In this document: piece after piece, positions 6,444-64,000 of the stretch
How the letters are laid out: each line of letters opens with the position of its first letter
Numbering within the stretch: position 1 is the first letter of the stretch
Assembly: GCA_036788695.1 (NCBI GenBank)
Contig: DAIQMY010000001.1
Span: 61,860 to 125,859, forward strand
Direction of reading: 5' to 3'
Length of the DNA stretch: 64,000 nucleotides
From: Candidatus Levyibacteriota bacterium
Lineage (GTDB): Bacteria > Patescibacteriota > Microgenomatia > Levybacterales > GWA1-39-11
The notes under the pieces: model-generated
What the model was told of the DNA's origin: nothing
The model's input: the letters and a program-made list of their open reading frames with translations, nothing else
The model's database searches: none
Program-made: the position numbers and the translations under genes

Positions 6444-6623
6444 GCAAAAAACCCGTTACTTTTTCTGTAGTTTAAAGATTTCTGCAATTTCAATCAGCGT
6501 TGTTGCGTCGTTTGGTTTTTTTAGGATCGCAGCAAAGCGAGAGCCGCAAAAAACCCGTTACTTTTTCTGTAGTTTAAAGATTTCTGCAATTTCAATCAGC
6601 GTTGTTGCGTCGTTTGGTTTTTT
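6444..6623. repeat. Perfect 78-bp tandem direct duplication (copies 6444..6521 and 6546..6623, 24-bp spacer) covering the last 15 codons plus stop of the DNA ligase gene
   Basis: Both copies read gcaaaaaacccgttactttttctgtagtttaaagatttctgcaatttcaatcagcgttgttgcgtcgtttggtttttt. Copy B is the real 3' end of the ligase ORF (…IAEIFKLQKK*). Copy A is a non-coding duplicate downstream. Confidence 0.8.
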
Positions 6624-8321
6624 ATCCTCCCTAAACCGCTCTAGCCTGGGAAATCGCAAGGCGTATCCTGGAACGTCCACATCATACGCTGATCCACTCT
6701 TTGAGGGCTTTAATGTTCTTCCCGCTGTATGCACAGGGGACCGGGTCAGTTCATCTGCTTTAATTTCTACTACAATCTCCGGGTTTACCCACACATCTGG
6801 CTCCAACCATTTATCTACTTCGTATAGTACTGGTTTTATTTTTGATTTTAATTTATCTCCTCGCTTCGCAAGTTCTCTCCACTCATCATCAGTAAGTCCA
6901 GTCCCTACCTTTGCAATAGTTAAGAACTTATCCTGTTTTGAGTCATAAATACCTATAAGAAACGCGCCAATTCCAAAACTAGTCCTCTTGCCACGTCCAT
7001 AGTAGTAACCCATAACTACACAGTCCACTGTATCGTCTAATTTTGACTGATATGATCTTTTCAGCTTTATCCAATTCCATCCTCTTGCCCCTGCTTGATA
7101 TGTGCCGTCAAGCTTCTTGGCTAATATCCCCTCAAGACCTCTAGAAATTGCATCATCAAAAAAGTTTTCTATTTCCTTTCCATCATTTAATACTTTCTCT
7201 TCAGCAGGATACAAAACACTTCCGTCTTTGATCATCTTGTTCAGCACTTTTCGTCTTTCTATGTAATGCTTGGGAATTAAATTCTCACCATCTACATATA
7301 ACGCGTCAAAAACCATGTATTTTAAGGGAATTTTGCGTGCCATCTCTTCTATGTCATATTTTCTTTTTCTCTGAGATGTTAACTGGAATGGAAGATATTC
7401 GTTTGTGTTAGGGTTATATGCTATTGCTTCCCCCTCAAATATAGCCTCTTTTGCCTTCATTTGCGATTTAATTCCTGCCTCAACATCAGGATACATAAAT
7501 GTTACTTCCTCTAAATTCCGCGTATACAATTTGACATTTTTCCCGTCCCAATGCGCTTGAAGCCTAAAACCATCAAACTTTTCCTCTACGGCACATTCAC
7601 CGATCTTATCAATTATTTCTTTTCCTGAACTTAATCTTTCTGCGCGAGCCATAAGTATAGGTGTTCCAACTGCAGGCTTCACCTTTCCAACGCCTTTGAT
7701 TCCATGCTCCTTGAGCATTTTGCCTATAACTCCCAGGTCTGGTCGTATGTTGTATGCCCTCTCTATTTCTTTTCTATAACTTTTGTTTCCTGCTAACATC
7801 CAGGACAAAGAATCTAAAACAGTCATATCAGAAAATCCTAAGCGTAACTTTCCAACAGGAATTCTAGCCACAAATCTTACGGATAATGGGTCTAAATCTT
7901 TAAATACATCTGAAAGCAATCCTATCTTCTTTTCAACTGAACCTGCACCATTTGTTTTCGTAATTTGTTCAAGAGCTGAAAAAACGTGTGCTATTGATGG
8001 ATCTTTGACTGAGTGTTTCTTACCCAAACTTAATTTTTCAGCCAAATCTCCTACATCTCCAATTTTTTTAAATTCAGCAGTAACATTCTTATCATCCTCC
8101 CCATATGCTAGGGCAACTGACCGCAGGATCATTTTGTCTGCCATCCCAAATTCGAGAGGAACATAGAGGGGTGCTACTCTTCCCTGGAGCAGATACATAA
8201 CGTGATCCATGTCTTCTACGGGAACTTTTTCAAAAAGCTCGGCTAAAATAAGCACCATTTCATTACGGGAAGTTATATTTTCTAATTTTTGAAGATAAAC
8301 TGAAAGGTCCGCAAATTTCAT
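6558..8321 (-). CDS. lig: ATP-dependent DNA ligase (archaeal/eukaryotic LigB-type, ~587 aa)
   Basis: Adenylation motif I EEKFDGFR (KxDG). N-terminal DNA-binding domain, then nucleotidyltransferase and OB domains. The size fits three-domain ATP-dependent ligases. Confidence 0.85.
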   Translation of the reverse strand: MKFADLSVYLQKLENITSRNEMVLILAELFEKVPVEDMDHVMYLLQGRVAPLYVPLEFGMADKMILRSVALAYGEDDKNVTAEFKKIGDVGDLAEKLSLGKKHSVKDPSIAHVFSALEQITKTNGAGSVEKKIGLLSDVFKDLDPLSVRFVARIPVGKLRLGFSDMTVLDSLSWMLAGNKSYRKEIERAYNIRPDLGVIGKMLKEHGIKGVGKVKPAVGTPILMARAERLSSGKEIIDKIGECAVEEKFDGFRLQAHWDGKNVKLYTRNLEEVTFMYPDVEAGIKSQMKAKEAIFEGEAIAYNPNTNEYLPFQLTSQRKRKYDIEEMARKIPLKYMVFDALYVDGENLIPKHYIERRKVLNKMIKDGSVLYPAEEKVLNDGKEIENFFDDAISRGLEGILAKKLDGTYQAGARGWNWIKLKRSYQSKLDDTVDCVVMGYYYGRGKRTSFGIGAFLIGIYDSKQDKFLTIAKVGTGLTDDEWRELAKRGDKLKSKIKPVLYEVDKWLEPDVWVNPEIVVEIKADELTRSPVHTAGRTLKPSKSGSAYDVDVPGYALRFPRLERFREDKKPNDATTLIEIAEIFKLQKK

Positions 8322-14920: not shown

Positions 14921-16348
14921 TTGCATTCTCGTAAGACACCATGCTACGCTTGTTATATGAGGATAAAAATCTTCGTTATTCTTCTCGTTGGGATAATCGT
15001 TCTTCTTCTGGGAACTGTCGGAATATTACTTTATCAAGCAAAATCACAGCAGAATACAAAAACTGAAACAAAAACCGCTTCCATAAGCGGAAAATTTAAT
15101 ATAAATGGTATCATTCCGGAAGGTGCATCTATAACGCTTACTCAAAAACAGATAGGAAAAACAGGCGCAACTCAAAAAATATTTGCTTCAAATTTGCCGG
15201 TTGCAGATCAGTCTCTTTGGAGCTTTAACACTGCACAAGAAAACGAGGAATATGAAATACAAGCACAAGTTGTTGTGGGACAAAACATAGTTGCATCATC
15301 AGACGTGCTTTTCGTAACTGCACCAGCAGATGACGAGACACTTACTGTAAACATTGAGTCAGAAAAACATACTCCTAACGCAGTTATTTCAGGAAACATC
15401 ATAATAAATGGATATATCCCCAATGGCGCAACAATTACTATCAAAGGAAGAAAGCTTGGCGCACAACAATTTACAACAGTTACGCAAAACCTTCCTGCAG
15501 CGTCACGTCAATTTATGAATTACACAACGGCACTAAGCGGTACAACATATGAAGTGGAAGGTATCCTTTTAACCTCAACAGGAACAGTAATTGGAACATC
15601 AAATATTATAACGCTCACAGCTCCTGCTGGAAACGAAGAGTTGATCATAAATTCTTCATCTCAACCTCCTCTTACCCCTACGCCTACTCCTTCAACGCAA
15701 ACAACAGTTGCTACTCCTACTCCTATCCCCCAGGGGGCAGCGATTTCAGGGGGTATAAATTTAAATGGAGCAGTACCTGCAAACTCCAGGATTGTAATCT
15801 TCCAACAAACCCAAAACAATCCCTCCTATCAGGTAGCTGTAAATAATGTCTCTCCTATGGACGGCGCAACTTGGAGTTGGGGAAGCGCCCAAAATGGAAC
15901 ATGGTATACGCTCATTGCAGTATTAAAGCAACACAATGCTGATGGAACAGATACGGATATAGCAACCTCCTCCCCCATAACAGTTGCTGCTCCTGCTTCA
16001 AATGTTATCTTTACTCTCAATTCTACAGTCTCACTCTCATCTCCTGGTGGACCAATATCTGTTTCTTGCCAAACATATAACGGAGGACCAAACCAAAATA
16101 CGTGGAATGTCGCAATTACTTTCCAATCCATTCCCGGAGCCCAATCCTATTGGTATCAAGTAGGAAGTACAAGTGGAAGCAACAATCTTGTTAACACTGC
16201 GAATCAATCAAATACAATTACAGCAACTTTCAGCAATAACACGACCTACTATGCAAGGTACGCCTATACAAACGTCCCCTCAACCCCGCTTGGATCCCCA
16301 CAATGGTCCGGCTTCTCGTCTTCTACTCCCCTTCAATGCAGCCATTAA
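14921..16348 (+). CDS. Surface-anchored repeat protein: N-terminal TM anchor, three ~100-aa tandem beta-rich repeats, Thr/Pro linker, C-terminal Cys-flanked domain
   Basis: Repeats start GKFNINGIIPEGASITL / GNIIINGYIPNGATITI / GGINLNGAVPANSRIVI. Linker is PPLTPTPTPSTQTTVATPTPIP. C-terminal domain has a CQ...CSH pair. The real start is probably MRIKIFVILLVG at 14957. Confidence 0.5.
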   Translation: MHSRKTPCYACYMRIKIFVILLVGIIVLLLGTVGILLYQAKSQQNTKTETKTASISGKFNINGIIPEGASITLTQKQIGKTGATQKIFASNLPVADQSLWSFNTAQENEEYEIQAQVVVGQNIVASSDVLFVTAPADDETLTVNIESEKHTPNAVISGNIIINGYIPNGATITIKGRKLGAQQFTTVTQNLPAASRQFMNYTTALSGTTYEVEGILLTSTGTVIGTSNIITLTAPAGNEELIINSSSQPPLTPTPTPSTQTTVATPTPIPQGAAISGGINLNGAVPANSRIVIFQQTQNNPSYQVAVNNVSPMDGATWSWGSAQNGTWYTLIAVLKQHNADGTDTDIATSSPITVAAPASNVIFTLNSTVSLSSPGGPISVSCQTYNGGPNQNTWNVAITFQSIPGAQSYWYQVGSTSGSNNLVNTANQSNTITATFSNNTTYYARYAYTNVPSTPLGSPQWSGFSSSTPLQCSH

Positions 16349-17950
16349 TTAGTTAATCTTATTCGTTACGTCTATAAATTTGTAATAATTATTTTCATCC
16401 TGGAAAATATAGTTTCTGTCTTCCAAGAGTGGGTAGTCTTCGTGAAAGTATTCATTAAATAAAATTCTGAAAGTGTTAACAGGAGTAATAGTCTGATAAA
16501 GGCTTGTTGTCTTTTTGCCGGGGAAATAATAGGCATTCAGGATGGGAAATTTTTCCCGCAATGAAGCTGTTTCTGCCGTTCCCCATGATTGGTGTTGCGG
16601 AAGTGGTACGTTCATGGGAAAAGGTCCTTCATCAGCCTGCAAAATAATAACAGGTGGATTTTTAGAATTTTTTAGAACCTTACCAATCGTATCTTTTATC
16701 ATGGAATTTGTGCATAGTATTTGATTTTTATAGTTCTCCTGATGATGCATTGTGTTTACAATCTTTTCAGAGATTGGATTGCAATTCTTATCAAAAACAA
16801 AAGGGTCATGAGGCAGTAATATATGCGTAAACACAAATTTTGGACCCTTCATCTGGGGTATTTTGTCAAATGCTTTAAATTCATAAAGAGCCGTAGATCT
16901 ATGAATATTGTTTTGAGGATCTAAAGACACATCCATGGGGTCGTGAAAAATATACTGAAAGATTGGGGATACGGCAGTAATATTTAGATATCCGGTTGTA
17001 AATTCATCAGAATTAAAATATCCTTTTTTTGGCAAAAATATATTTACATCAGCACTCGGATTTATTCTGGTAGGCTCCCACCATGAACCAACGTTTATAA
17101 CGCTATACCCTCGTTTTTTTAAAAACTCTAGCACTTTACTGTTGCGTATATATGGCGTCACAATAGACTCATCCCCTGATGCCCCACCGTTTGTCTTGTC
17201 TGTTAAAAAATCCATATACTCCATATTCAAAGATGACGCTAAAGACAAAAATGTCTTCGGATAGTTTGTTGTAGAGGAAGATGCGACATAAAACCCCTTG
17301 CTCTCAAGATAGGAAAGTAATGAACTATTATCAAAATTGTATTCCTCAGATAATGATTTTTGACCTGCATATCTATCAAGGATAAAATAATAGATATCAG
17401 GATCTGAAGATGATGCTTTTTTAATGTCTGTTTTAACAATTGGTGAGTGGTTGATACCACTCCAACCTCTTTTTGCCCTTAACTCAAAATTGACAATAGT
17501 AACTGAGGAAAAAAGAACTAATCCTAAAAATAAATATGTTAATAACTTATTTAACAGAATAAGTCTTTTTTTGTATTTCCTTGAAACACATGAGACTAGG
17601 AGAACAATAACAAAAATGCTTATGACGCTTGTTGCATTATGAGGAATTGATATCCCGCCAAAACGTAAATCCTGCTCTATTAAGACTGAAAACAATCTAC
17701 TATATGAGAGTACTACAAACACAATTGTTGAGGCAACCACTGTTGAGATTTCTTTTTTTTTAAATACTAAGTACGTTGCTGCTGAAACAAAAACTGCAAA
17801 TAACAATGCCAACGCAATAGGTATGGGCAAAACGCTTAACGTATATTGACGAAGATTATTTGCATACAAAAAAAGCACCGTATAAATTGCGATGAGATAT
17901 GGGGAGGAGAAAATATAGTTTTCTTTTACAAATGCCCCGAATCGTTTCAT
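16349..17950 (-). CDS. Polytopic membrane protein with extracytoplasmic sulfatase/LTA-synthase-like (alkaline-phosphatase superfamily) domain
   Basis: ~5 N-terminal TM helices, then a ~350-aa soluble domain. The assignment rests on architecture and weak motif resemblance only. Confidence 0.4.
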   Translation of the reverse strand: MKRFGAFVKENYIFSSPYLIAIYTVLFLYANNLRQYTLSVLPIPIALALLFAVFVSAATYLVFKKKEISTVVASTIVFVVLSYSRLFSVLIEQDLRFGGISIPHNATSVISIFVIVLLVSCVSRKYKKRLILLNKLLTYLFLGLVLFSSVTIVNFELRAKRGWSGINHSPIVKTDIKKASSSDPDIYYFILDRYAGQKSLSEEYNFDNSSLLSYLESKGFYVASSSTTNYPKTFLSLASSLNMEYMDFLTDKTNGGASGDESIVTPYIRNSKVLEFLKKRGYSVINVGSWWEPTRINPSADVNIFLPKKGYFNSDEFTTGYLNITAVSPIFQYIFHDPMDVSLDPQNNIHRSTALYEFKAFDKIPQMKGPKFVFTHILLPHDPFVFDKNCNPISEKIVNTMHHQENYKNQILCTNSMIKDTIGKVLKNSKNPPVIILQADEGPFPMNVPLPQHQSWGTAETASLREKFPILNAYYFPGKKTTSLYQTITPVNTFRILFNEYFHEDYPLLEDRNYIFQDENNYYKFIDVTNKIN

Positions 17951-17971: not shown

Positions 17972-19339
17972 CTATGCTTTCTTTTGCATTAAGTAGAGCG
18001 TTCTCTTACTGTCCCGGATGGCAACCTTTCTTTTTATGTCAAAATACTCTGAGAATTCTGCCTCAAAATCCTTTTGGGTGTACCATGGGAAAATATCTTT
18101 TCTGTTTGCAAGCAAAATCTGGATCTGAGAATCAGTTTTCTCAATAAATTCAATAATAAGGTTTCCTCCCATTTCAGAAAAACACGATGCCAAATATGAA
18201 AACGGTACATTACCTGGAAATACTAAATGATGAATAAGCGCCAATGCTAGAATAGTGTCCGCAGGCCCCCGGTCAAACAAAGACATACGCTCCTTTCCCT
18301 CCCACCCGAGTGACGGCGTAGGATTTGATAAATCTGAAAATAAAGGTAGGATATTTGTAACGTTTCCTTCTCTTAAGTGTAGGTAATTTTTTTCAATAGC
18401 ACCGTAATCAACATCAAAAGCCAAGACTTGTTCTGCTGATTTTGCGGCAATTTTACTAAAATGTCCCGTGTTTGCTCCCATATCCCAAACTACCTTGGCA
18501 CAACTCTCCTTCACAAACTTTTCAACCAATTCAGATTTATGGCGAAATGATGCAGATTTATAGTTGTTTTTATCTTCTTCATAATAGTCTTCCCATTGAG
18601 TACCCTGCGGACTCCACTTGAGACTTTTAATAGTTCCCTCCAGGTTATCAAGCAATCCAAGCAGCGCGCGTTTACTAAATTTTCTGCTTTTTGTTGCCCT
18701 ATCTATTTTCTTATTTGAGTATTTTTTCTGCGTTGATGCGTGGGCAAATATATGAAAAAGAAGTCTGGGGTTCAATCGGGCACGAACAGGAAGCATATGC
18801 GCTGTAAGCTCAATTGGAATTCCGTCTAAAAATGACTCTCCAAGTCTATTCAACCGTACATCTACATATGACATTAAACACAGAGGAGACAAAAAGTGCT
18901 CAACAAACTGTTTATAGGCAATCCATGGCTTTCCATCCTCATACTTCTCAAATGAAAGCGTATCAATAAAAATCGGCATATTATCTACAAACTGGATATT
19001 ATAAGCGCTTGCGTCCTTTAACGATAACTCATACTCCAACGCTTTCTTCTGAATATGAAGCGTAGTAAGCGCGGCATGTTTTAACATGCTAAATGACCAT
19101 TCATACCAGTATGAAATAAAAGGTATCTGTTGAGGCTCAATAACCTTCCAGGCATTAGCCTGATCCGGCATATTGATTTCTTTGTGTGTCACAAGCAATT
19201 TCTCGTCAGTGAGCGCGCTATAAAGACCGGATGACATAAGAAGTTCATAATCACTTTTATATGATTCATTTATATGGCGGTAAACAATGCCATTCCTACT
19301 AAAAACAAATCCGCTTGGATCTTTATATGATGCGGCCAT
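17972..19339 (-). CDS. Class I SAM-dependent methyltransferase with large N-terminal domain
   Basis: Motif I VWDMGANTGHFS (GxGxG-like) followed by the acidic LAFDVD motif II, in the C-terminal third. Confidence 0.55.
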   Translation of the reverse strand: MAASYKDPSGFVFSRNGIVYRHINESYKSDYELLMSSGLYSALTDEKLLVTHKEINMPDQANAWKVIEPQQIPFISYWYEWSFSMLKHAALTTLHIQKKALEYELSLKDASAYNIQFVDNMPIFIDTLSFEKYEDGKPWIAYKQFVEHFLSPLCLMSYVDVRLNRLGESFLDGIPIELTAHMLPVRARLNPRLLFHIFAHASTQKKYSNKKIDRATKSRKFSKRALLGLLDNLEGTIKSLKWSPQGTQWEDYYEEDKNNYKSASFRHKSELVEKFVKESCAKVVWDMGANTGHFSKIAAKSAEQVLAFDVDYGAIEKNYLHLREGNVTNILPLFSDLSNPTPSLGWEGKERMSLFDRGPADTILALALIHHLVFPGNVPFSYLASCFSEMGGNLIIEFIEKTDSQIQILLANRKDIFPWYTQKDFEAEFSEYFDIKRKVAIRDSKRTLYLMQKKA

Positions 19340-55127: not shown

Positions 55128-56693
55128 TTATTCTAGATTCTCACGCTTTGAGTGAAGATATAAAAACCATTGATCAAAAAATCCAAAAAGTCCTTTGAAG
55201 GGAGTTTCTATCACGAAATCAAACAAGAAAAGAATTATGTTTACCTGTGAGATTCCCTCTGTTAAATACATACCTACTCTGGCTACAGGTAAGAAGAAGA
55301 AATCAGCAACGAGTGTTTTAATGCTTTGCTTGTCCTCAAGAGTATAAATATGGGCAGTTTGACTGATTCTATAAGATAAGAAAGAAACAATTGCAATAAA
55401 GAACAGAAAAATACCCTGACTGATAATATTAAAGTCTAGCTTTGTTAATACGAATACAATAAAGCCAAAGCTGATAAGAAATGTGGTGAGCCACAATACG
55501 GTAAAAATGATATCAGAAAATGTGTTTTTCTTTTTTGATGGGTCTTGAAAAGTGATTGCATATCCAATTCTCGGCTCAGCTGAAAACATAAGCTCACGGA
55601 TCGCATGAAGAATTCTTAACGAATTACTTCTGTTTGGTGTAGTAATAAAAAAGCTTGCAATAATCATAAGAGATACGGGAGCAACTATATTAAGCCCCAG
55701 AGTTAACCACTGAATATGCCCATATGCATACTTTTCATACGTTCCTTCTATAACAAAGGCGAAAAGAACTTTTGATATTAATATAAAAACAACTGATCTT
55801 ACAATTGCCCTTCTGACTTTTGATGCAATACCACTATATTTCTTCTCACATGTAGAAATTACCACGTTTGAAAATTCTTCCTCATTCTCTATAAGGGTGT
55901 ACATATTCCCCTCCTGAGTTCTTATAATATCCTCAAGAATTAAGAAGGGAGGAATATATTTTTTTACATAATTTGCAATCTTATATCTGAGCGGATGCTC
56001 AATTGCTCGTTCTATGCTCGCAAACGCCTCTGAAAATCCTACTGAAACTTTTTCAAAGCTATCACTTGTTACCCCGCCAAAATATTGCTTAAAAAGATTG
56101 AACCGCAAAAGGGCTAAGTTGTCTTTCGTGTAAGACCTTCTTATTGCAATAAATAATTGCACATTAAGCGTGTCTTCTGTTTCATTCTCCAACGTGATAT
56201 TTGGATGCAGCGAGTGGAAGATATAGTTTGCCATCGCCTCACGATCAGGTCTTGGATTGAGAAGATTTTCAAGGTCAGATGAAAGAAGGTCATATACTAG
56301 CTTTGTTGCCTCACCATCTTTTAAAATTTTATTATCTATAATGTATCGTCTTAACTTAAGGTATGTATCTATTTTGTCTTGTGAAGCATGAATTAAATCC
56401 TCTGTTACGCTCCCGTCTGGAAGGTAACGCGCCCATATCAATTCGCGAACCAGTGGCCCTGCGACCCCTTTCCCGCCACCTAATAAAATTCTTCGTTTAA
56501 TTATTCGCAATATTGTAGACTGAAGCAAAACCTCATCCTGTCTATACTCCATTGCATTTCTTAATTTTTCATACCATGATGCTATTTCTGAAACAATTGG
56601 ATTAACGGTTAAGCCTTGTTTTTGAAGCTTCTTCTCCTCCTTAATAAAATATTTAAATAATTCTTTCGTGTACTGATTTATAGATGTCTGCAT
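55128..56693 (-). CDS. Hypothetical protein: ~300-aa soluble N-terminal domain + 5-TM C-terminal domain
   Basis: Hydropathy pattern only. First gene of the minus-strand envelope operon. Confidence 0.4.
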   Translation of the reverse strand: MQTSINQYTKELFKYFIKEEKKLQKQGLTVNPIVSEIASWYEKLRNAMEYRQDEVLLQSTILRIIKRRILLGGGKGVAGPLVRELIWARYLPDGSVTEDLIHASQDKIDTYLKLRRYIIDNKILKDGEATKLVYDLLSSDLENLLNPRPDREAMANYIFHSLHPNITLENETEDTLNVQLFIAIRRSYTKDNLALLRFNLFKQYFGGVTSDSFEKVSVGFSEAFASIERAIEHPLRYKIANYVKKYIPPFLILEDIIRTQEGNMYTLIENEEEFSNVVISTCEKKYSGIASKVRRAIVRSVVFILISKVLFAFVIEGTYEKYAYGHIQWLTLGLNIVAPVSLMIIASFFITTPNRSNSLRILHAIRELMFSAEPRIGYAITFQDPSKKKNTFSDIIFTVLWLTTFLISFGFIVFVLTKLDFNIISQGIFLFFIAIVSFLSYRISQTAHIYTLEDKQSIKTLVADFFFLPVARVGMYLTEGISQVNIILFLFDFVIETPFKGLFGFFDQWFLYLHSKRENLE

Positions 56694-57797: not shown

Positions 57798-59921
57798 ATG
57801 GATAAAGTATATAATCATGGAAGTTCGGAAGAAAAAATATATGCATCATGGGAAAATAATGGTTATTTTAAACCAGAGGTACATCCAAATGGCAAGCCGT
57901 ATTCAATTATTCTCCCTCCACCAAATGCAAACGGTGCGCTTCATTTTGGACATGCCATGTTTACCGTTGAGGATATTTTAATTAGATATCACCGCATGAA
58001 AGGGTACGCAGCACTATGGCTTCCAGGAACAGACCATGCTGGGATAGAGACTCAATTTGTTTTTGAAAAAAGACTAAAAGAAGAAGGAAAAAGCAGACTC
58101 GATTTTGATCAATCAACACTTTATTCAATGATTCATGAGTATGTAGAACAACACAGGGGAGGTATTCAAAAACAACTAAAAAGACTTGGGTTCTCACTTG
58201 ATTGGTCAAGAGAAAAATATACGCTTGACCCGGAAATTATAAAGCTTGTCTATAAAACATTTCATCAAATGTATAATGATAATCTTATATATAGAGGGTA
58301 TAAATTAGTTAATTATTGCACGTTTGATGGAACTTCCTTCTCAGACCTTGAGGTTGTTGCTGAGGAAACACAAGGATTACTTTATGAAATCGCTTACCCC
58401 CTTGAAGGAGGAGGAGAAATTCTTGTTGCAACAAGCAGACCAGAAACGTTATTTGGTGATGTGGCAGTTATGGTAAATCCGACAGATATAAGATACACCA
58501 ACCTTATTGGAAAAAATGTACTTCTTCCGTTAACTGATCGGAAGATACCTATTATTAAAGACGACTTCGTAAATAAAGATTTTGGCACTGGAGCCGTAAA
58601 GGTTACCCCTATGCAGAATTTTGATGATTGGGAAGTTGCAAGTAGGCATGCGCTGACAGGAATTCAGGTGGTTAACTTTGACGGCAAGATGATAAATACA
58701 GGGGTCGTAGACGGACTTTTTGTGAAACCTGCACGGGAAAAAACACTTCAACTACTGGATGAGAAAAATTTACTCAAGAGAGAAAAAAAATACACAACAG
58801 TTAGAAAAATTTGTTATAAATGCAAACATGAACTTGAACCGCTTCCGCTTGAGCAATGGTTTGTAAAAGTAAAAACGCTTGCTGATGAAGCAATACATGC
58901 AGTTAAGACAGGAAAAATAACGATTACTCCTAAAAATTTTGAGGCAATCTATTTTCAGTGGCTCGAAAACCTACGGGATTGGAATATAAGCAGACAAATA
59001 GCATGGGGGATACGTATCCCTGCCTGGAGATGTCATGACTGTGATGCATGGATTGTCACAGAAGGAGAAACCCCCATACAATGCACTGAATGTAAGTCAC
59101 TCAAACTCTCCCAAGACTCAGATACATTTGACACATGGTTCTCTTCTGGTCAATGGCCATATCTAACGCTTAAAACAAGTGGGGGGGATTTTGAAAAATT
59201 CTATCCTACTGATGTCATGGAAACAGCATATGACATTTTAAAGGCGTGGGTAACCAGAATGGTCATGCTTGGACTTTATGTCACGAATGATATCCCATTT
59301 AAAAACGTTTTGTTCCATGGAATAGTAAACGATCCATATGGGAAAAAGATGAGTAAAAGCCGGGGAAATGTTATCAACCCACTTGAATTAGTAGATGAAT
59401 ATGGAGCTGATGCGGTACGCTTCGCCCTTATCTATGGTAACGCAACAGGAAACGACCAAGCTCTCTCTTATCCAAAACTTGAAGCAGCAAGAAAATTTAC
59501 CAATAAAATTTGGAATATTGGACGCTTTATAGAGATGCAAAAAGATAAGCTTACAGAAAATAAACCACAGATAAATAAAACAATTTCAGATGTAAAAGCT
59601 AAAAATGCAACAGACCAAGAATGGGTTGAGAGGGTACATGCCTTAAACATGGAAATCACCAAATATCTTGATGCTTATCAATTTAATTTAGCCGCGGAAA
59701 GACTGTATGAGTTTATTTGGCATGAGTTTGCAGATATTTACATAGAGGATGTTAAAAATAGAATGGACAACGATTCCTACTCCATATTAGTTTTACTCTA
59801 TACAAACCTCTTACTACTTATTCATCCTTTTATGCCTTTTATTACCGAAAAAATAAATCAAGAGCTAGGGCTTGAGAATGAAATGCTTATTATTTCTGCA
59901 TGGCCAGGCACATATGCATAA
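57798..59921 (+). CDS. valS: Valine--tRNA ligase, compact form lacking the C-terminal coiled-coil
   Basis: HIGH-class motif PPPNANGALHFGHA. TDHAGIETQ. KMSKS motif KMSKSRGN. 707 aa, versus ~880 aa in typical bacteria. Confidence 0.85.
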   Translation: MDKVYNHGSSEEKIYASWENNGYFKPEVHPNGKPYSIILPPPNANGALHFGHAMFTVEDILIRYHRMKGYAALWLPGTDHAGIETQFVFEKRLKEEGKSRLDFDQSTLYSMIHEYVEQHRGGIQKQLKRLGFSLDWSREKYTLDPEIIKLVYKTFHQMYNDNLIYRGYKLVNYCTFDGTSFSDLEVVAEETQGLLYEIAYPLEGGGEILVATSRPETLFGDVAVMVNPTDIRYTNLIGKNVLLPLTDRKIPIIKDDFVNKDFGTGAVKVTPMQNFDDWEVASRHALTGIQVVNFDGKMINTGVVDGLFVKPAREKTLQLLDEKNLLKREKKYTTVRKICYKCKHELEPLPLEQWFVKVKTLADEAIHAVKTGKITITPKNFEAIYFQWLENLRDWNISRQIAWGIRIPAWRCHDCDAWIVTEGETPIQCTECKSLKLSQDSDTFDTWFSSGQWPYLTLKTSGGDFEKFYPTDVMETAYDILKAWVTRMVMLGLYVTNDIPFKNVLFHGIVNDPYGKKMSKSRGNVINPLELVDEYGADAVRFALIYGNATGNDQALSYPKLEAARKFTNKIWNIGRFIEMQKDKLTENKPQINKTISDVKAKNATDQEWVERVHALNMEITKYLDAYQFNLAAERLYEFIWHEFADIYIEDVKNRMDNDSYSILVLLYTNLLLLIHPFMPFITEKINQELGLENEMLIISAWPGTYA

Positions 59922-61749
59922 ATTACTTGTATATCTTTTTTTCATAGCTTTGTTTCTATTTCCATCACAAATTTTTGCGAGTGAAAACTCATACATCACG
60001 ATTGTTAACCCTCAAAGAATTTCCTCCTACACAAAAAACTACCTTGCAAGTTTCCAAGCAGAAAAGTATGAGATAGAATCCAGAAATCTACCTGCCACTT
60101 GGCTCCTAACATATAACGTCCTTACTAAAAACGACTTTGTAAAGGAGTTAAAAACTCTAAACCGCAATCAGGAGCTTGGCATATTTCTGGAAATTACACC
60201 TGAGCTTTCAAAAAAAGCAAATGTAGTCTACAACAGCACTTCCTCATGGCATTATGCCACATCCTTATTTCTATCCGGATATTCACAAAATGACCGCAAG
60301 AAATTAATAGATACAGTTTTTGAGACCTTTAAAAATACCTTTGGCTATTATCCAGTGTCTGTAGGAGGATGGTGGGTTGACTCATATTCTCTTGAATATA
60401 TGAAGAAAAAATATAATATTACAAGTGTACTTGGTGTTTCAGACCAATACGATCTTGATCACTACACAGTATGGGGAACTTGGTGGTCAGTACCATACTA
60501 TCCAAACAAAACACACGCCGCAATCCCCGCACAAAATATAAATGAAAAACTAGACATAGTGTCCCTACGGTGGGCAGCTCGCGACCCGCTTCACGGGTAT
60601 CACAGCCCTAGCAGTAGCGCGGCCAGTATGTATAGTGTACAGGACTATTCAACACTACAAATAGACTCCTCCTATTTTGAGAAACTCTTATCCACATTTG
60701 CCCCCAAACATTATGAAAATTCGTTTGGACATATAACTGTGGGGCTTGAAGGAGATTTAGACCCCTCAATATATAAAACTAATTTCGCAAAACAACTTGA
60801 CATGGTAAAGCAATTTGCCCAAACAAATAATACAAAACTTCTTACCATGGGAGAGTTTTCAAAGTGGTATCGATCATCATTCCCTTCCGTCTCACCAAAC
60901 CATCTTGTTTATGCTCAGGATCTTTTAGGAAGGGGCGATAAACAGTCTCTATGGATGCAAACACCATATTATAGAATTGGCCTTTTGTATGACTCCAAAA
61001 AAAAGACTTTACAAATAGTAGACCTAAGAGAATACTACCCTAACTTTAAAGAACCTTTTTTTATTGAAAAAAATATGCAAAATAATCTACCCATAACACT
61101 ACCGTACTTAATAGATACAGAAATTAATCCGGGGACTCAAGAAAACTTTAATCTTGGCGAATTACTGAAAGCAACCAATAAATCACTCGTATTTGAGAAG
61201 GGGATAGTTCAGTTCAATGATAATTCCATAACTTTTCCTACCAAAACATTCACTTTCGGCAAAAAGTATTCTGTTCCGAACACGGGTATCGTTTATAAAG
61301 ATGCATCTATCACTTTTCCTTTCACCCTAAAAAGACGCTTCCCGTATCTCCCTGGGGCTATACCGTTTATAATTCCTCAGCTATTTTATATTAGTCAATC
61401 AGAGTATGACGCGCTACAAGTATTAAAAAAGCAAAAAATGGGTAATGTGCTCGTTTTTGATAAAGACTGCATTAAATGCGCATTTACAAGTCAATATAAG
61501 CCTGCTGCAGCAGCTGGTAAGAAGTCTTATATTAATGTCTTCACAAATAAGCCTGTGCAGGTTGATATATCATTTTTGCTTGCGCGCTCAAGTATGAATG
61601 CAAGAAATATCCTGAAGAAAAAAAATATCAGATATATTTACCTTTCAAAGTATGAGAGTTATGTTGAGTCGCTTCCCTATTTGCCTCAGGATCTGGGGTT
61701 AAAGAGAGTGTACCAAAACGCAAATGCTGAAATTTGGAAAGTAGACTAA
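59914..61749 (+). CDS. Large secreted protein (signal peptide; Trp/Tyr-rich), hypothetical
   Basis: MHKLLVYLFFIALFLFPSQIFA|SEN signal peptide. No recognised catalytic motif. 8-nt overlap with the valS stop. Confidence 0.45.
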   Translation: MHKLLVYLFFIALFLFPSQIFASENSYITIVNPQRISSYTKNYLASFQAEKYEIESRNLPATWLLTYNVLTKNDFVKELKTLNRNQELGIFLEITPELSKKANVVYNSTSSWHYATSLFLSGYSQNDRKKLIDTVFETFKNTFGYYPVSVGGWWVDSYSLEYMKKKYNITSVLGVSDQYDLDHYTVWGTWWSVPYYPNKTHAAIPAQNINEKLDIVSLRWAARDPLHGYHSPSSSAASMYSVQDYSTLQIDSSYFEKLLSTFAPKHYENSFGHITVGLEGDLDPSIYKTNFAKQLDMVKQFAQTNNTKLLTMGEFSKWYRSSFPSVSPNHLVYAQDLLGRGDKQSLWMQTPYYRIGLLYDSKKKTLQIVDLREYYPNFKEPFFIEKNMQNNLPITLPYLIDTEINPGTQENFNLGELLKATNKSLVFEKGIVQFNDNSITFPTKTFTFGKKYSVPNTGIVYKDASITFPFTLKRRFPYLPGAIPFIIPQLFYISQSEYDALQVLKKQKMGNVLVFDKDCIKCAFTSQYKPAAAAGKKSYINVFTNKPVQVDISFLLARSSMNARNILKKKNIRYIYLSKYESYVESLPYLPQDLGLKRVYQNANAEIWKVD

Positions 61750-61753
61750 AAAC

Positions 61754-63520
61754 TTATTTAACCGTAACGGACTTTGCAAGATTCCTAGGTTTATCTGGAT
61801 CATTTATTCCTTTTGCAAGTGCTATATAATAGGATAAGAGCTGAACAGGCACAATTTGTGTCAGGATAGTCGCATCTTTTAAGTCCTTTATCTCTATAAA
61901 GTCATCAAATGCTTCAGAATTCTTAGGACTTATACCAATAATTCGCGCTCCACGGGATCGTATTTCAATAGCGTTTGAAATTATTGCCTCATATGTCTCG
62001 TCTAATGGCGCAAAAACTATACATGGAGTTCCTTTTTGAATCAGTGCTATTGTCCCATGTTTTAATTCTCCCCCTGCAAGCCCCTCAGTATGAATATATG
62101 TTACTTCTTTTATTTTTAGAGCTGCCTCAAGCGCACTCGGGTAAGACATACCGCGTCCAATAATAAATATGCTTTGCGCGCTTGCAAGACCTTTTGCCAG
62201 ACGCTTTATTTTTTGAAGTTTTTTCTTATCCAACATACCTCTAATCTCATCTGCTGCCATATGTACGTATGGAAGAATTTCTTTTGTCTTGTCATCCAGG
62301 GAATATGCCAAGAGTAAAAGGGTAGTGAGCTTTGCGATATATGCCTTGGTTGACGCAACAGCTTTCTCAGGACCTGCGCCTAACAACATTTTATAGTCTG
62401 CCATTCTATAAATGGTTGAACCTATAACATTAACAACTGCCGCGATTGTGGCCCCTTTTTCCTGTGCTCGCGTTAACGGCTCAACAACATCTATTGTTTC
62501 TCCGCTTTGTGAAAACGCCATAACTAAACTTTTCTTCTTCAAAAAATCTTCAACATAATTAAATTCTGAAGCAATAGCAGAATTCACATGAATCTTTGCG
62601 ATTCTTGAAAAAAGGTAGATACCAGATAAACATGCGTGATAAGCTGTCCCTGCCGCAATAAAAAATGTCCCGTGGGCACTTTTTACAACGTTTGAAAGCC
62701 TTTTTATTTCTGGTAAACACTCATTTGCTAAGTGCTCAATAACAATTGGCTGTTCCGCAATTTCCTTAACCATAAAATGCTTAAATGTTCCAAGCTGCGC
62801 TGTTTCCTGCTGCCAATTAATTCCCTGTATATTTGGTTTTTCTTTTTTACCGGTTTTCAAAGACAAAACTTCTATGGATTTTGTGAGGGTAGCAAGCATA
62901 TGGTCTTCAAGAAAAATCATATTTTTTGTGTGAGGAAGAATTGCTGACATATCAGAAGCCACAAAATATTCACCTTTTCCTACTCCTATAACTAGTGGTG
63001 ATCCGTTTTTTGCGACAACAAGTGCATTTGTCTTTTGATCCATTACAACCACCGCTGAAAGACCATGAAGCTTTTGAAAGACTGAAAATACCGCATGGGA
63101 AAGGTTATCGTCTTTTTTTAGCTCCTCCTCAATTAAATGTACAATTACTTCTGTGTCGGTCCCTGAAACAAAGGTATGTTTTCTTTTAATAAGCCCTTCC
63201 TTTAACTCTTTATAATTTTCAACGATTCCATTATGAACTAAGGCGATTCTATGGTCACAATCCATATGGGGATGAGCATTCTCAACAGTAACTCCACCAT
63301 GCGTTGCCCATCGGGTATGCCCAATTCCTAAAGAACTTTCGGCTAGTGTTGTTGAGGCTCCGCCAATCTTCCCAACATGCTTTTCCATAGCAATCTTTTC
63401 ACCGCCATTTACAGCAACGCCCCATGAATCATAACCTCTATATTCAAGAGTTTTTAAGCCATCAAGCACTATATTTGCAGCATTCTTTTTTGGACCAATA
63501 TAACCTAATATTCCACACAT
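61754..63520 (-). CDS. glmS: Glutamine--fructose-6-phosphate aminotransferase (isomerising)
   Basis: Starts MCGILGYIG, with the N-terminal nucleophile Cys after Met. Two SIS domains. C-terminal ...KPRNLAKSVTVK. The ORF-track start at 63613 is an upstream extension. Confidence 0.9.
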   Translation of the reverse strand: MCGILGYIGPKKNAANIVLDGLKTLEYRGYDSWGVAVNGGEKIAMEKHVGKIGGASTTLAESSLGIGHTRWATHGGVTVENAHPHMDCDHRIALVHNGIVENYKELKEGLIKRKHTFVSGTDTEVIVHLIEEELKKDDNLSHAVFSVFQKLHGLSAVVVMDQKTNALVVAKNGSPLVIGVGKGEYFVASDMSAILPHTKNMIFLEDHMLATLTKSIEVLSLKTGKKEKPNIQGINWQQETAQLGTFKHFMVKEIAEQPIVIEHLANECLPEIKRLSNVVKSAHGTFFIAAGTAYHACLSGIYLFSRIAKIHVNSAIASEFNYVEDFLKKKSLVMAFSQSGETIDVVEPLTRAQEKGATIAAVVNVIGSTIYRMADYKMLLGAGPEKAVASTKAYIAKLTTLLLLAYSLDDKTKEILPYVHMAADEIRGMLDKKKLQKIKRLAKGLASAQSIFIIGRGMSYPSALEAALKIKEVTYIHTEGLAGGELKHGTIALIQKGTPCIVFAPLDETYEAIISNAIEIRSRGARIIGISPKNSEAFDDFIEIKDLKDATILTQIVPVQLLSYYIALAKGINDPDKPRNLAKSVTVK

Positions 63521-63797
63521 ATAAAATAGTTGGGTGACAAAACAAAGGTAATTTATACAAATACCTTGGGGACTGAGGTGAGTAGTGCACGAATTCTTCT
63601 TTGTTCTCCTCATTACTGAAGAGTGTTAAAAAAATTCTTTAGGTTGGCATTGCAACCTGAAGGTTTCCGCAAATCCTCCCCTCACTTTTCTGTGAGTGGG
63701 GTCCGATCTCTCTTGCAACAAATGGCAAGAGACCTTCTCCTCGTTATCCCGCAAGCGGGATCTACACGCTCTTAACTTAAAAAAACACGCTCAATTC
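63521..63797 (-). ncRNA. Long (~277 nt) highly structured 5' leader of glmS ending in a terminator-like hairpin + U7: candidate cis-regulatory RNA (riboswitch/attenuator; possibly a divergent glmS-type element)
   Basis: In the glmS sense there are four hairpins: ATCCCGCttGCGGGAT (63761..63746), TCTCTTGCcatttgttGCAAGAGA (63732..63709), CCCCaCTCACagaaaaGTGAGGGG (63701..63678), AGGTTGcaatgcCAACCT (63658..63641). Then AAAGAATTTTTTT (U-run 63634..63628), ~105 nt before the ATG. ACGAGGAGAAGG loosely resembles the glmS-ribozyme GACGAGGAUGGAGG core. Confidence 0.35.
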
Positions 63798-63804
63798 CGC
63801 CCAT

Positions 63805-63865
63805 AGTATATCTATAAACTCTTACAATGTCAAGCTTTGACATATATTCTAGCCCTTGAGATAAT
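63805..63865. promoter_or_regulatory. Back-to-back divergent sigma-70-like promoters sharing an inverted repeat TGTCAA-GCT-TTGACA
   Basis: Minus: TTGACA (63833..63828)-17-TATACT (63810..63805), directing the glmS leader. Plus: TTGACA (63837..63842)-17-GATAAT (63860..63865), reading out of the window. The two -35 boxes are the two arms of the palindrome. Confidence 0.4.
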
Positions 63866-64000
63866 AGAACAGTGAACATAAAGCAGTTATTACCGCATAA
63901 TTACCGAATCATTACCGCAACCCAAAATCATATCTCTCAAAATAAAAAAATGTATTCGATTTATGCCTTGTGTTTTTCGACTTTGCTTTTACTATTTTTA

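What the first reader, a model, noticed from the sequence alone, without database searches (positions are those of the whole stretch)
63521..63797. Long hairpin-rich glmS leader with an intrinsic-terminator-like element: candidate riboswitch/attenuator (possibly a divergent glmS-type RNA)
A strong minus-strand promoter (TTGACA-17-TATACT) places the transcription start ~277 nt upstream of the glmS ATG. In sense orientation the leader contains four stable hairpins in a row. The last is AGGTTGcaatgcCAACCT followed 5 nt later by U7, the canonical architecture of a transcription-attenuation riboswitch expression platform. About 105 nt then precede the start codon. glmS is riboswitch/ribozyme-regulated in Firmicutes (glmS ribozyme, GlcN6P-dependent self-cleavage) and sRNA-regulated in Enterobacteria. 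The segment ACGAGGAGAAGG faintly echoes the ribozyme core GACGAGGAUGGAGG, but the overall match is weak. This may be a new GlcN6P-responsive or otherwise novel leader in this lineage.
Basis: partly seen in the sequence, partly recalled or inferred. Interest (0 to 1): 0.55.

Follow-up and report, generated by a model that had tools for sequence, protein, structure and literature searches.

The report
CPR-type variant glmS self-cleaving ribozyme
The long structured leader in front of glmS is a glmS ribozyme, the known RNA that cuts its own mRNA when the product glucosamine-6-phosphate builds up; here it occurs in an ultrasmall CPR bacterium, in an unusual form with two extra hairpins inserted into its catalytic core.

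Summary
In detail: the promoter, the four consecutive hairpins and the U-run are all present. The leader is not a new riboswitch or an attenuator. Rfam's glmS ribozyme model (RF00234) matches window 63581-63781 (minus strand) end to end at 58.6 bits, against a gathering score of 37. All residues whose single mutants are reported as non-cleaving are present (G1, C2, G3, A27, C28, G56, G57), as is the guanine I take to be the catalytic base. The host is a Candidatus Levyibacteriota bacterium (Microgenomates, CPR). What is unusual is the architecture. Both single-stranded linkers of the double-pseudoknot core are replaced by hairpins, H1 and H2 (69 nt between the P2 strands where the consensus has 22), and the distal part of P2.2 is rewritten. 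I found the same architecture in 19 distinct sequences, each upstream of glmS, spanning three deeply divergent GlmS clades. Covariation supports every variable helix. Rfam's threshold misses 5 of the 15 metagenomic members. Verdict: a member of a known class and a probably undescribed structural subtype. GlcN6P-dependent cleavage is inferred, not shown.

The parts
63805..63833 (-). sigma-70-type promoter TTGACA-17-TATACT for the glmS leader; transcription start inferred near 63798
   Evidence: 11 of 12 consensus positions; identical in L001 and L002 apart from one spacer base. The start site is inferred.
63769..63770 (-). predicted cleavage site: A(-1) at 63770, G1 at 63769; the scissile phosphate lies between them
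   Evidence: Rfam alignment to the consensus aAGCGCC. The register is fixed by the P2.2 pair C2-G56. Cleavage itself was not tested.
63762..63768 (-). P2.2 5' strand, C2 G3 U4 G5 [U6 bulged] A7 G8
   Evidence: the canonical register with a bulge at position 6 gives 6 of 6 pairs; 5-53 and 7-52 covary across the family
63746..63761 (-). P1 hairpin AUCCCG-CUUG-CGGGAU
   Evidence: z -4.1; 5 of 6 pairs change on both sides; GC to AU double swaps in L001
63738..63745 (-). core strand A26 A27 C28 G29 A30 G G A. CGA (63741-63743) is the P2.1 5' strand; G29 is taken to be the catalytic guanine.
   Evidence: A27, C28, G29, A30, G31 and G32 are invariant in 19 of 19 (ACGAGGA was fixed by the scan pattern for the metagenomic members). 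Position 26 is A here and G in the consensus. The role of G29 rests on mapping from PMC7125110 plus my own recollection.
63733..63737 (-). P2 5' strand GAAGG
   Evidence: pairs with CCUUC at 63659-63663; invariant, but the 3' strand was fixed by my search pattern
63709..63732 (-). H1, an inserted hairpin UCUCUUGC-loop-GCAAGAGA that replaces the short linker between P2 and the P2.1 3' strand
   Evidence: z -5.4; 8 of 8 pairs change on both sides in 19 sequences; absent from the Rfam consensus and from the Firmicutes examples
63704..63706 (-). P2.1 3' strand UCG (U43 C44 G45, part of the cofactor pocket)
   Evidence: invariant in 19 of 19 and not fixed by the scan pattern; complementary to CGA at 63741-63743; role taken from PMC7125110
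63678..63701 (-). H2, an inserted hairpin CCCC(AC)UCAC-AGAAAA-GUGAGGGG that replaces the 4-nt loop between P2.1 and P2.2
   Evidence: z -4.5; 8 of 8 pairs change on both sides
63664..63673 (-). P2.2 3' strand U51 U52 U53 G54 C55 G56, then G57 A A A
   Evidence: GCGGAAA was fixed by the scan pattern for the metagenomic members
63659..63663 (-). P2 3' strand CCUUC
63641..63658 (-).
   Evidence: 3 of 6 pairs change on both sides
63591..63637 (-).
   Evidence: 14 of 14 pairs change on both sides; L4 is GNRA in 16 of 19
63586..63588 (-). P3.1 3' strand GCA, which pairs with the L3 bases UGC
   Evidence: L002 has UAC/GUA, a compensatory change; 2 of 3 aligned pairs change on both sides although this pseudoknot was not in the model. 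It is only 3 bp here, no better than shuffled tails, against 5-6 bp in most relatives.
61754..63520 (-). glmS, encoding glutamine-fructose-6-phosphate aminotransferase (588 aa, starts Met-Cys)
   Evidence: GATase_6/7 plus two SIS domains

Best explanation
The leader is a glmS ribozyme: a GlcN6P-cofactor-dependent self-cleaving RNA that gives negative feedback on GlmS synthesis. Transcription starts near 63798. The RNA folds into the glmS double pseudoknot (P2.2-P2-P2.1) flanked by P1, and is buttressed by the P3/P3.1/P4 domain. When GlcN6P binds the preformed pocket, the RNA cleaves between A63770 and G63769. That releases a roughly 28-nt 5' fragment and leaves the glmS mRNA with a 5'-OH. In Bacillus this end marks the mRNA for RNase J1 decay, so GlmS output falls. 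This copy belongs to a structural subtype in CPR/Patescibacteria-like lineages. In the subtype, both single-stranded linkers of the core are replaced by hairpins: H1 between P2 and the P2.1 3' strand, and H2 between P2.1 and P2.2. The distal half of P2.2 and its base-triple partner at position 26 are also rewritten in a compensated way. Shown here: homology to RF00234, the architecture, conservation of the essential residues, covariation of the helices, and linkage to glmS. Inferred: cleavage, the identity of the ligand, the fate of the cleaved mRNA, and any role of H1 and H2. My guess is that H1 and H2 stabilise or guide folding of a core whose P2.2 is weakened by G-U pairs.
For: - RF00234 matches the full model (positions 1-167) at 58.6 bits against a gathering score of 37, E 6.7e-13, and is the only non-tRNA Rfam hit in the 64 kb.
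- The orthologous leaders in L001 and L002 score 57.1 and 62.5 bits. A distant Patescibacteria genome, L043 (GlmS 39% identical), scores 48.8 bits and has its insertion at the same site.
- A metagenome scan recovered the same architecture; 19 distinct sequences are known in all, each 100-175 nt upstream of an ORF starting MCGI.
- Residues whose single mutants are reported as non-cleaving (G1, C2, G3, A27, C28, G56, G57; PMC7125110) are all present in the window and its relatives, as are G29, A30 and U43-G45.
- On the 19-sequence alignment, 95.4% of cells pair, against 71.6% in shuffles (0 of 500 reach the observed value) and 35-50% when partners are slid. 42 of 59 pairs change on both sides.
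- The P2.2 and P3.1 pseudoknots were not part of the alignment model, yet both covary: 5-53 appears as G-U, A-U and U-A; 7-52 as G-C and A-U.
- Position 26 tracks the 7-52 pair it is reported to contact: it is A in every sequence where 7-52 is A-U.
- L4 is GNRA in 16 of 19, and the A-rich internal loop of P4 is kept.
- The window encodes two class-A PBPs and envelope glycosyltransferases, so the organism needs GlcN6P.
Against: - No cleavage or ligand data exist for any member of this subtype.
- Several positions that are highly conserved in canonical ribozymes differ here: C4C5 becomes UG, the bulged A6 becomes U, G26 becomes A, and the AUG after G57 becomes AAA. In the T. tengcongensis core, uncompensated C5 or G53 changes cost about 1000-fold in rate. 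Here the partner changes too, but activity is unproven.
- P3.1 is only 3 bp in the window, no better than shuffled tails.
- P2 and P2.1 never vary, which is partly forced by my search pattern, so they have no covariation support.
- No RNase J-like gene lies in the 64 kb, so the step after cleavage is unsupported for this organism.
- No Shine-Dalgarno sequence is evident before the ATG.
Confidence: 0.88

Rival explanations
1. One reading: a transcription-attenuation riboswitch whose expression platform is the hairpin AGGUUG...CAACCU plus U7, sensing GlcN6P or another ligand through a new aptamer.
For: A 6-bp stem is followed within 6 nt by U7, and the leader is long and structured.
Against: - The terminator scan finds no site in the leader on the minus strand.
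- The stem aligns to P3 of RF00234 and the U-run to the 5' strand of the outer P4 helix.
- Relatives have no U-run there (for example GUUUUCC in L087 and GCAUAUC in L114), but the segment stays complementary to its 3' partner: 7 of 7 pairs change on both sides.
- The stem has only 3 G-C pairs and sits 6 nt from the U-run.
- The whole leader is accounted for by a known ribozyme.
Confidence: 0.03
2. A decayed or exapted relic: a glmS-ribozyme-derived leader that no longer cleaves, or cleaves constitutively, and acts only as a structured 5' UTR. The H1 and H2 insertions and the altered P2.2 would have broken cofactor-dependent catalysis.
For: - It deviates at canonically conserved positions 4, 5, 6, 26 and 58-60.
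- It has a low Rfam score compared with Firmicutes examples (58.6 against 79-107 bits).
- P3.1 is short.
- The ribozyme is absent from close relatives L003 and L004, so it is dispensable.
Against: - The architecture and all essential residues are kept across lineages whose GlmS proteins are only 37-40% identical.
- Compensatory changes occur in every variable helix, including the pseudoknots.
- That pattern indicates purifying selection on the folded ribozyme, not drift.
- The changes in P2.2 are compensated on the partner strand.
Confidence: 0.07
3. The leader encodes a small peptide, such as the 42-aa TTG ORF at 63626-63754 or the 29-aa ORF at 63639-63728 on the minus strand, and the structure is incidental.
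For: These ORFs appear in the mechanical ORF list.
Against: - L001 and L002 carry +1 and -1 nt indels in the H2 loop, inside both ORFs, so no reading frame is preserved among 92%-identical leaders.
- Substitutions are compensatory in stems, not synonymous.
- The starts are TTG with no ribosome-binding site.
Confidence: 0.01

Closest known systems
glmS ribozyme / GlcN6P riboswitch (Rfam RF00234; Bacillus subtilis, B. anthracis, Thermoanaerobacter tengcongensis)
   Same: - It sits in the glmS 5' UTR.
- It has the A|G cleavage-site context.
- It has the P2.2-P2-P2.1 double pseudoknot in the same register, with a bulge at position 6.
- It keeps the ACGAGG core strand, the UCG pocket strand and the GCGG strand.
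- P1 has a C-G-rich base.
- It has P3, the P3.1 pseudoknot, and P4 with an A-rich internal loop and a GNRA tetraloop.
- The Rfam match is full length and above the gathering score.
   Different: - There are 69 nt between the two P2 strands where the consensus has 22.
- Hairpin H1 replaces the 'uUu' linker, and hairpin H2 replaces the 4-nt P2.1-P2.2 loop.
- P2.2 uses U4-G54 and G5-U53 wobble pairs, has U6 as the bulge, has A7-U52 in place of G7-C52, and may have an extra G8-U51 pair.
- Position 26 is A, not G.
- G57 is followed by AAA, not AUG.
- P1 is short with a CUUG loop.
- The host is a CPR bacterium, not a Firmicute.
- Five relatives have G at position -1.
Intrinsic-terminator (attenuation) riboswitches of Firmicutes, such as the SAM-I, purine and lysine classes
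   Same: A long structured 5' UTR upstream of a biosynthetic gene, with a hairpin near a U-run.
   Different: There is no terminator by the scan, the U-run is base-paired inside the ribozyme's P4 domain, no alternative antiterminator is required, and regulation is by RNA cleavage.
GlmY/GlmZ sRNA control of glmS in Enterobacteria
   Same: The same regulated gene and the same logic of feedback by GlcN6P.
   Different: That system acts in trans through sRNAs, RapZ and RNase E. Nothing of that kind was detected here: there are no Rfam hits other than glmS and one tRNA in 64 kb.

Membership tests
glmS ribozyme (RF00234) | Scores at or above the curated gathering threshold of the family covariance model, full length | tested here: met
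   58.6 bits against 37, model positions 1-167 of 167, E 6.7e-13
glmS ribozyme (RF00234) | Located in the 5' UTR of glmS, on the same strand | tested here: met
   The 3' end of the Rfam match is 61 nt before the glmS ATG. All 19 family members precede an ORF starting MCGI.
glmS ribozyme (RF00234) | Residues whose single mutation abolishes cleavage (G1, C2, G3, A27, C28, G56, G57), plus the P2.1 guanine G29 and the pocket strand U43-G45 | tested here: met
   All are present in the window. Each is invariant in 19 of 19, apart from N-1, G1 and C2 in one misaligned row of A4. The list of mutants comes from PMC7125110. ACGAGGA and GCGGAAA were fixed by the scan pattern for the metagenomic members, but not for the window, L001, L002 or L043.
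glmS ribozyme (RF00234) | P2.2 pseudoknot: the nucleotides just 3' of the cleavage site pair with the strand before G57 (2-56, 3-55, 4-54, 5-53, bulge at 6, 7-52) | tested here: met
   6 of 6 pairs in this register in the window and in 16 of 19 sequences. Both sides change at 5-53 and 7-52. Alternative registers do worse.
glmS ribozyme (RF00234) | P2.1 pseudoknot (C28 G29 A30 with U43 C44 G45) and helix P2 | tested here: inconclusive
   Complementarity is perfect in 19 of 19, but neither helix ever varies, so there is no covariation. The P2 3' strand and ACGAGGA were fixed by my pattern.
glmS ribozyme (RF00234) | Peripheral domain: P3, the P3.1 pseudoknot (L3 with the 3' tail), and P4 with an A-rich internal loop and a GNRA tetraloop | tested here: met
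   P3 has 3 of 6 and P4 has 14 of 14 pairs with changes on both sides. P3.1 has 2 of 3 and was not in the model. L4 is GNRA in 16 of 19. In the window P3.1 is only 3 bp.
glmS ribozyme (RF00234) | Compact core: short single-stranded linkers between P2, P2.1 and P2.2 (about 22 nt between the P2 strands) | tested here: not met
   The window has 69 nt there, with hairpins H1 and H2 in the two linkers. Rfam treats 57 nt as an unmodelled insertion. This feature is typical of the family, not catalytic, so I count this as a structural variant and not as an exclusion.
glmS ribozyme (RF00234) | Site-specific self-cleavage accelerated by GlcN6P | not testable with these tools
   This needs an in vitro cleavage assay.
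Intrinsic-terminator riboswitch expression platform | A G+C-rich stem followed within 0-2 nt by a U-run, conserved as such, with a competing antiterminator | tested here: not met
   No terminator-like site was found in the leader. The U-run lies 6 nt from the stem, is paired within P4, and is not kept as a U-run in relatives.

The most novel reading that the evidence does not exclude
This may be a previously undescribed, CPR/Patescibacteria-associated structural subclass of glmS ribozymes. In it, both linkers of the double-pseudoknot catalytic core have become three-way junctions (H1 and H2), and P2.2 and the 26*7-52 base triple are rewritten. Some members have G instead of A at the cleavage-site -1 position. 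About a third of the metagenomic members escape Rfam's threshold. If active, the subclass would offer natural covariation for core pseudoknots that are nearly invariant in canonical sequences. It might also fold, or respond to cofactor, differently from the Firmicutes ribozymes.
Probability: 0.45. Interest if true: 0.5.

Novelty: new variant of a known kind. Interest (0 to 1): 0.38.

Why it matters
For annotating this window it settles the question: the glmS leader is a known ribozyme class, not a new riboswitch.

Beyond that there are three modest points of interest.
- **Range.** It extends glmS ribozymes to CPR bacteria. These are ultrasmall organisms with reduced genomes, and the papers I could search say almost nothing about their regulatory RNAs. 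None of those papers links glmS control to CPR.
- **Structure.** Helices are inserted inside the catalytic double pseudoknot, not at its periphery. The compensated changes in P2.2 and the 26*7-52 triple are natural experiments on a core described as too conserved to show covariation (PMC2258182).
- **Annotation.** Five of the 15 metagenomic members fall below Rfam's gathering score, so a subtype-aware model would improve annotation.

None of this overturns current understanding.

Tried and rejected
- **Terminator/attenuator reading.** Rejected.
- **Small-ORF reading.** Rejected.
- **More distant relatives.** L003 (Levyibacteriota), L004 (Microgenomates), L005, L011 and L013 have no RF00234 hit even at E <= 1. 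Model R1 finds nothing in L003-L080 except weak hits to two canonical Firmicutes ribozymes. Presence is therefore patchy, and I could not trace the subtype's origin.
- **MAFFT alignment (A2).** It misaligned the variable hairpins, and one of its rows (L087) used wrong coordinates. I replaced it with anchor parsing and an Infernal alignment (A4).
- **A4 alignment.** It is still ragged in P1, H1 and H2, and it misaligns the 5' strand of L114, L087, L088, L100 and L102. For that reason P2.2 was tabulated directly.
- **L083.** It does not fit the P2.2 register (3 of 6 pairs). This is unexplained.
- **Key papers not held.** McCown 2011 (RNA 17:728), McCown 2012, the Ferre-D'Amare 2010 review, Cochrane 2007 and Soukup 2006 could not be read. 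I therefore could not check whether insertions like H1 and H2 were already catalogued.
- **Literature searches.** Searches for glmS with CPR taxa found nothing.
- **RNase J.** Pfam scans of 27 window ORFs found none.
- **My first P3.1 script.** It failed on a P3 stem with an internal mismatch and was redone on A4.

Full report
**Observation**

On the minus strand, glmS starts at 63520. The ORF begins MCGILGY, is 588 aa long, and has GATase_6/7 and two SIS domains. The longer 619-aa ORF in the list is only an in-frame upstream ATG inside the leader. A promoter TTGACA-17-TATACT at 63833..63805 matches 11 of 12 consensus positions, which puts the transcription start near 63798. An unconstrained fold of the 277-nt leader gives -77.1 kcal/mol (z -2.57) and contains all of them.

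**Identity**

A permissive cmscan against all 4227 Rfam families returned one hit in 63300-64000. It was RF00234, the glmS GlcN6P-activated ribozyme, at 63581-63781 on the minus strand. It scored 58.6 bits against a gathering score of 37 (E 6.7e-13) and covered model positions 1-167 of 167. In the whole window the only other hit above gathering score is one tRNA. The U-run is the 5' strand of the outer P4 helix and pairs with AGAAUUC at 63591-63597. ACGAGGA is the catalytic core strand. The terminator scan finds nothing in the leader.

**Host and relatives**

Scanning species-representative genomes with GlmS gave two near-identical loci: L001 at 95% identity and L002 at 94%. L002 is a Candidatus Levyibacteriota MAG. 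Both have the same ribozyme, at 57.1 and 62.5 bits. The window's gene content fits a small CPR genome: sigma-70, DnaG, an ATP-dependent DNA ligase, LeuRS, two class-A PBPs and envelope glycosyltransferases. A more distant Levyibacteriota locus (L003, GlmS 59% identical) and a Microgenomates locus (L004, 49%) have no ribozyme even at E <= 1. Among about 60 further glmS loci, canonical ribozymes appear in four Firmicutes-type loci at 79-107 bits. One more hit appears in a 'Patescibacteria group' MAG, L043, whose GlmS is 39% identical, at 48.8 bits.

**Anatomy**

The Rfam alignment leaves 57 nt unmodelled where the consensus has 10. L043 has 55 nt at the same place.

The pairings reported for the T. 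tengcongensis core (PMC7125110) are as follows:
- P2.2 is 2-56, 3-55, 4-54 and 5-53, then a bulged A6, then 7-52.
- P2.1 pairs residues 28-30 with 43-45.
- A loop of residues 47-50 joins P2.1 to P2.2.
- The base triples are 26*7-52 and 27*28-45.

On that basis, what Rfam draws as a small 'P2a' hairpin actually holds the 3' strands of P2.1 and P2.2.

The window maps onto this as follows:

| Element | Window coordinates (minus strand) | Sequence or note |
|---|---|---|
| Cleavage site | 63770 \| 63769 | A(-1) \| G1 |
| P2.2 5' strand | 63768-63762 | C2 G3 U4 G5 [U6] A7 G8 |
| P1 | 63761-63746 | AUCCCG-CUUG-CGGGAU |
| Core strand | 63745-63738 | A26 A27 C28 G29 A30 G G A |
| P2 5' strand | 63737-63733 | GAAGG |
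| H1 | 63732-63709 | inserted hairpin |
| Linker | 63708-63707 | G A |
| P2.1 3' strand | 63706-63704 | U43 C44 G45 |
| Linker | 63703-63702 | G A |
| H2 | 63701-63678 | inserted hairpin |
| Linker | 63677-63674 | A G G A |
| P2.2 3' strand | 63673-63668 | U51 U52 U53 G54 C55 G56 |
| After P2.2 | 63667-63664 | G57 A A A |
| P2 3' strand | 63663-63659 | CCUUC |
| P3 | 63658-63641 | AGGUUG-CAAUGC-CAACCU |
| P4 domain | 63637-63591 | includes GUAA tetraloop at 63616-63613 |
| P3.1 3' strand | 63588-63586 | GCA |

So H1 replaces the linker between P2 and P2.1, and H2 replaces the P2.1-P2.2 loop. There are 69 nt between the P2 strands, against 22 in the consensus.

The guanine of the P2.1 strand is present (G29 in core numbering). 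From memory, this is the catalytic G33 of T. tengcongensis and G40 of B. anthracis. The G that is lost is position 26, the base-triple partner, not the catalytic base.

**A family with this architecture**

One metagenome scan used the pattern ACGAGGA-N{50,80}-GCGGAAACCTTCAGG, which leaves the 5' strand, P1 and both insertions free. It returned 34 loci. Eleven are chance hits in unrelated, mostly G+C-rich DNA. Ten of those were searched with model R1 and none matched; the eleventh, L112, has the same sequence as L084. The other 23 collapse to 15 new distinct ribozymes plus L081, a near-copy of the window. Together with the window, L001, L002 and L043 this makes 19 distinct sequences.

All 19 parse into the same plan: a 9-nt 5' strand, P1, ACGAGGA, GAAGG, H1, R-AUCG-RR, H2 (preceded by an unpaired C in most), ARNAUYN-GCGGAAA, then CCUUC (L083 departs in the ARNAUYN stretch). 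RNAfold predicts a hairpin for every H1 and H2. Each is followed 100-175 nt later by an ORF starting MCGI. Mean z against shuffles is -4.6 for P1, -5.1 for H1 and -4.3 for H2. The weakest H2 hairpins (L107, L114) are not individually significant. Median pairwise identity of the insert sequences is about 0.5.

A covariance model seeded only from the three Levyibacteriota leaders (R1) finds all 19 at 75-282 bits and none of the 10 chance loci searched. It gives canonical Firmicutes ribozymes only 20-24 bits.

**Covariation**

I used the Infernal alignment A4 with P2.1, P2.2 and P3.1 added as pseudoknots.
- 95.4% of cells form standard pairs, against 71.6 +/- 0.8% in shuffles (0 of 500 reach the observed value) and 35-50% when partners are slid by 1-3 columns.
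- 42 of 59 pairs change on both sides.
- By helix, the pairs with changes on both sides are: P1 5 of 6, H1 8 of 8, H2 8 of 8, P3 3 of 6, P4 outer 7 of 7, P4 inner 7 of 7, P3.1 2 of 3, P2.2 2 of 6.
- P2 and P2.1 never vary.

Two caveats apply. The nested helices were fitted by the model, so their percentage paired leans towards the structure. The invariance of ACGAGGA, GCGGAAA and CCUUC is forced by the scan pattern for the metagenomic members. The pseudoknots were not in the model.

P2.2 is anchored on both sides, so I tabulated it directly. The canonical register with a bulge at position 6 gives 6 of 6 pairs in 16 of 19 sequences. L087 and L088 need the bulge at position 5, and L083 fits poorly. 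Pair 5-53 appears as G-U, A-U and U-A. Pair 7-52 appears as G-C and A-U. Position 26 is A in every sequence where 7-52 is A-U (the Levyibacteriota trio, L107, L109, L111). Where 7-52 is G-C, position 26 is U, G or A. That fits the reported 26*7-52 triple, for which G26A rescues a G7 mutant.

P3.1 is 5-6 bp in most members, for example CGUUAU/AUAACG and GAUUGU/ACAGUC. In the window it is only 3 bp (UGC/GCA), which is no better than shuffled tails. However, L002 has the compensatory UAC/GUA. L4 is GNRA in 16 of 19 sequences.

**Mechanism**

By homology, the RNA should cleave between A63770 and G63769 using GlcN6P as cofactor. That would lower glmS mRNA and close a feedback loop on cell-wall precursor supply. 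The organism encodes peptidoglycan synthases.

What is shown is class membership, conservation of every residue known to be indispensable, and selection on the fold. Cleavage, ligand identity and mRNA fate are inferences. In particular, the Bacillus route through RNase J1 acting on the 5'-OH end (from established knowledge, cited in PMC5473149) has no support here, since no such gene lies in the window.

H1 and H2 have no conserved loop sequences, so specific loop-receptor contacts are unlikely. I suggest, as inference only, that closing both linkers into three-way junctions helps a core whose P2.2 is weakened by G-U pairs to fold.

**Comparison and novelty**

This is a member of RF00234 by the family's own threshold and by its defining residues and pseudoknots. 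It departs from the typical compact core and from several positions that are highly conserved in canonical ribozymes.

Rfam's gathering threshold detects 10 of the 15 metagenomic members and misses L083, L092, L098, L104 and L107. The carriers' GlmS proteins fall into three clades that are only 37-40% identical to one another: one Levyibacteriota/Microgenomates-like, one L043-like, and the pair L100/L114. The subtype is therefore either old or mobile among these lineages. Only the clades represented by L002 and L043 are explicitly labelled CPR. L107 also carries a group I intron, a feature frequent in Patescibacteria (PMC13011429).

No paper in the searchable library links glmS ribozymes or riboswitches to CPR taxa. 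An earlier survey noted that P2.1 and P2.2 are too conserved to show covariation (PMC2258182). I could not read McCown 2011, so I cannot rule out that similar insertions were already catalogued.

**Verdict**

The finding resolves to a known ribozyme class in an unusual host and an unusual, probably undescribed, structural form. Interest is moderate.

Noticed in passing
window 63827-63843 (both strands) and 63837-63865 (+): A perfect 17-nt palindrome, ATGTCAAAGCTTGACAT, holds two face-to-face -35 TTGACA boxes: one for the glmS promoter and one for a divergent plus-strand promoter (TTGACA-17-GATAAT with an upstream TG). The plus-strand promoter precedes a small ORF that starts near 63874 and runs off the window. 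Its L001 orthologue is 125 aa, with a hydrophobic segment and a possibly TPR-like tail. The palindrome could also be an operator.
   Followed up: partly
window 63785-63791 (-): A second copy of the heptamer AGCGUGU lies 14 nt upstream of the real cleavage-site heptamer (63770-63764). It is kept in L002 and L081 and has one mismatch in L001. It could be a decoy strand for P2.2 or simply chance; the relatives are too similar to tell.
   Followed up: partly
L096, L101, L102, L109, L111 (5' strand GGCGUGU...): Five family members have G instead of the usual A at position -1, immediately 5' of the predicted scissile bond.
   Followed up: partly
L083, L092, L098, L104, L107: These variant ribozymes fall below Rfam's RF00234 gathering score under standard filters, although the subtype model scores them at 75-113 bits. 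Standard annotation would miss them.
   Followed up: yes
L003 and L004 (upstream of glmS): A Levyibacteriota MAG and a Microgenomates MAG whose GlmS is about 60% identical to that of ribozyme carriers (L107, L087) have no glmS ribozyme at E <= 1, so presence is patchy within the group.
   Followed up: partly
L083 5' strand AGCGCAAUG / 3' strand AAGAGUAGCG: This member does not fit the P2.2 register shared by the other 18 (3 of 6 pairs), and its strand after H2 is shorter. This is unexplained.
   Followed up: no
window 63790-63795 with about 63572-63580 (-): Both the MFE and centroid folds pair the 5' leader AUUGAG with CUCAGU just 3' of the ribozyme, which would enclose the whole ribozyme in a long-range helix. 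The pairing is not obviously kept in L001 or L002.
   Followed up: partly
window 59872-61749 (+): A 625-aa ORF with no Pfam match and a hydrophobic N-terminus converges on glmS. The two ORFs end 4 nt apart, with no terminator-like site between them. Five other ORFs of 455-533 aa also have no Pfam match (3726-5102, 14921-16345, 16352-17950, 17975-19339, 55131-56693).
   Followed up: no
window 6561-8321 (-): An ATP-dependent DNA ligase with DNA_ligase_A_N, A_M and A_C domains.
   Followed up: no
L107 8046-8307 (+); L061 1-81 (-): There is a group I intron on the L107 contig (61.8 bits). There is also a THF riboswitch at the edge of the Firmicutes locus L061.
   Followed up: no
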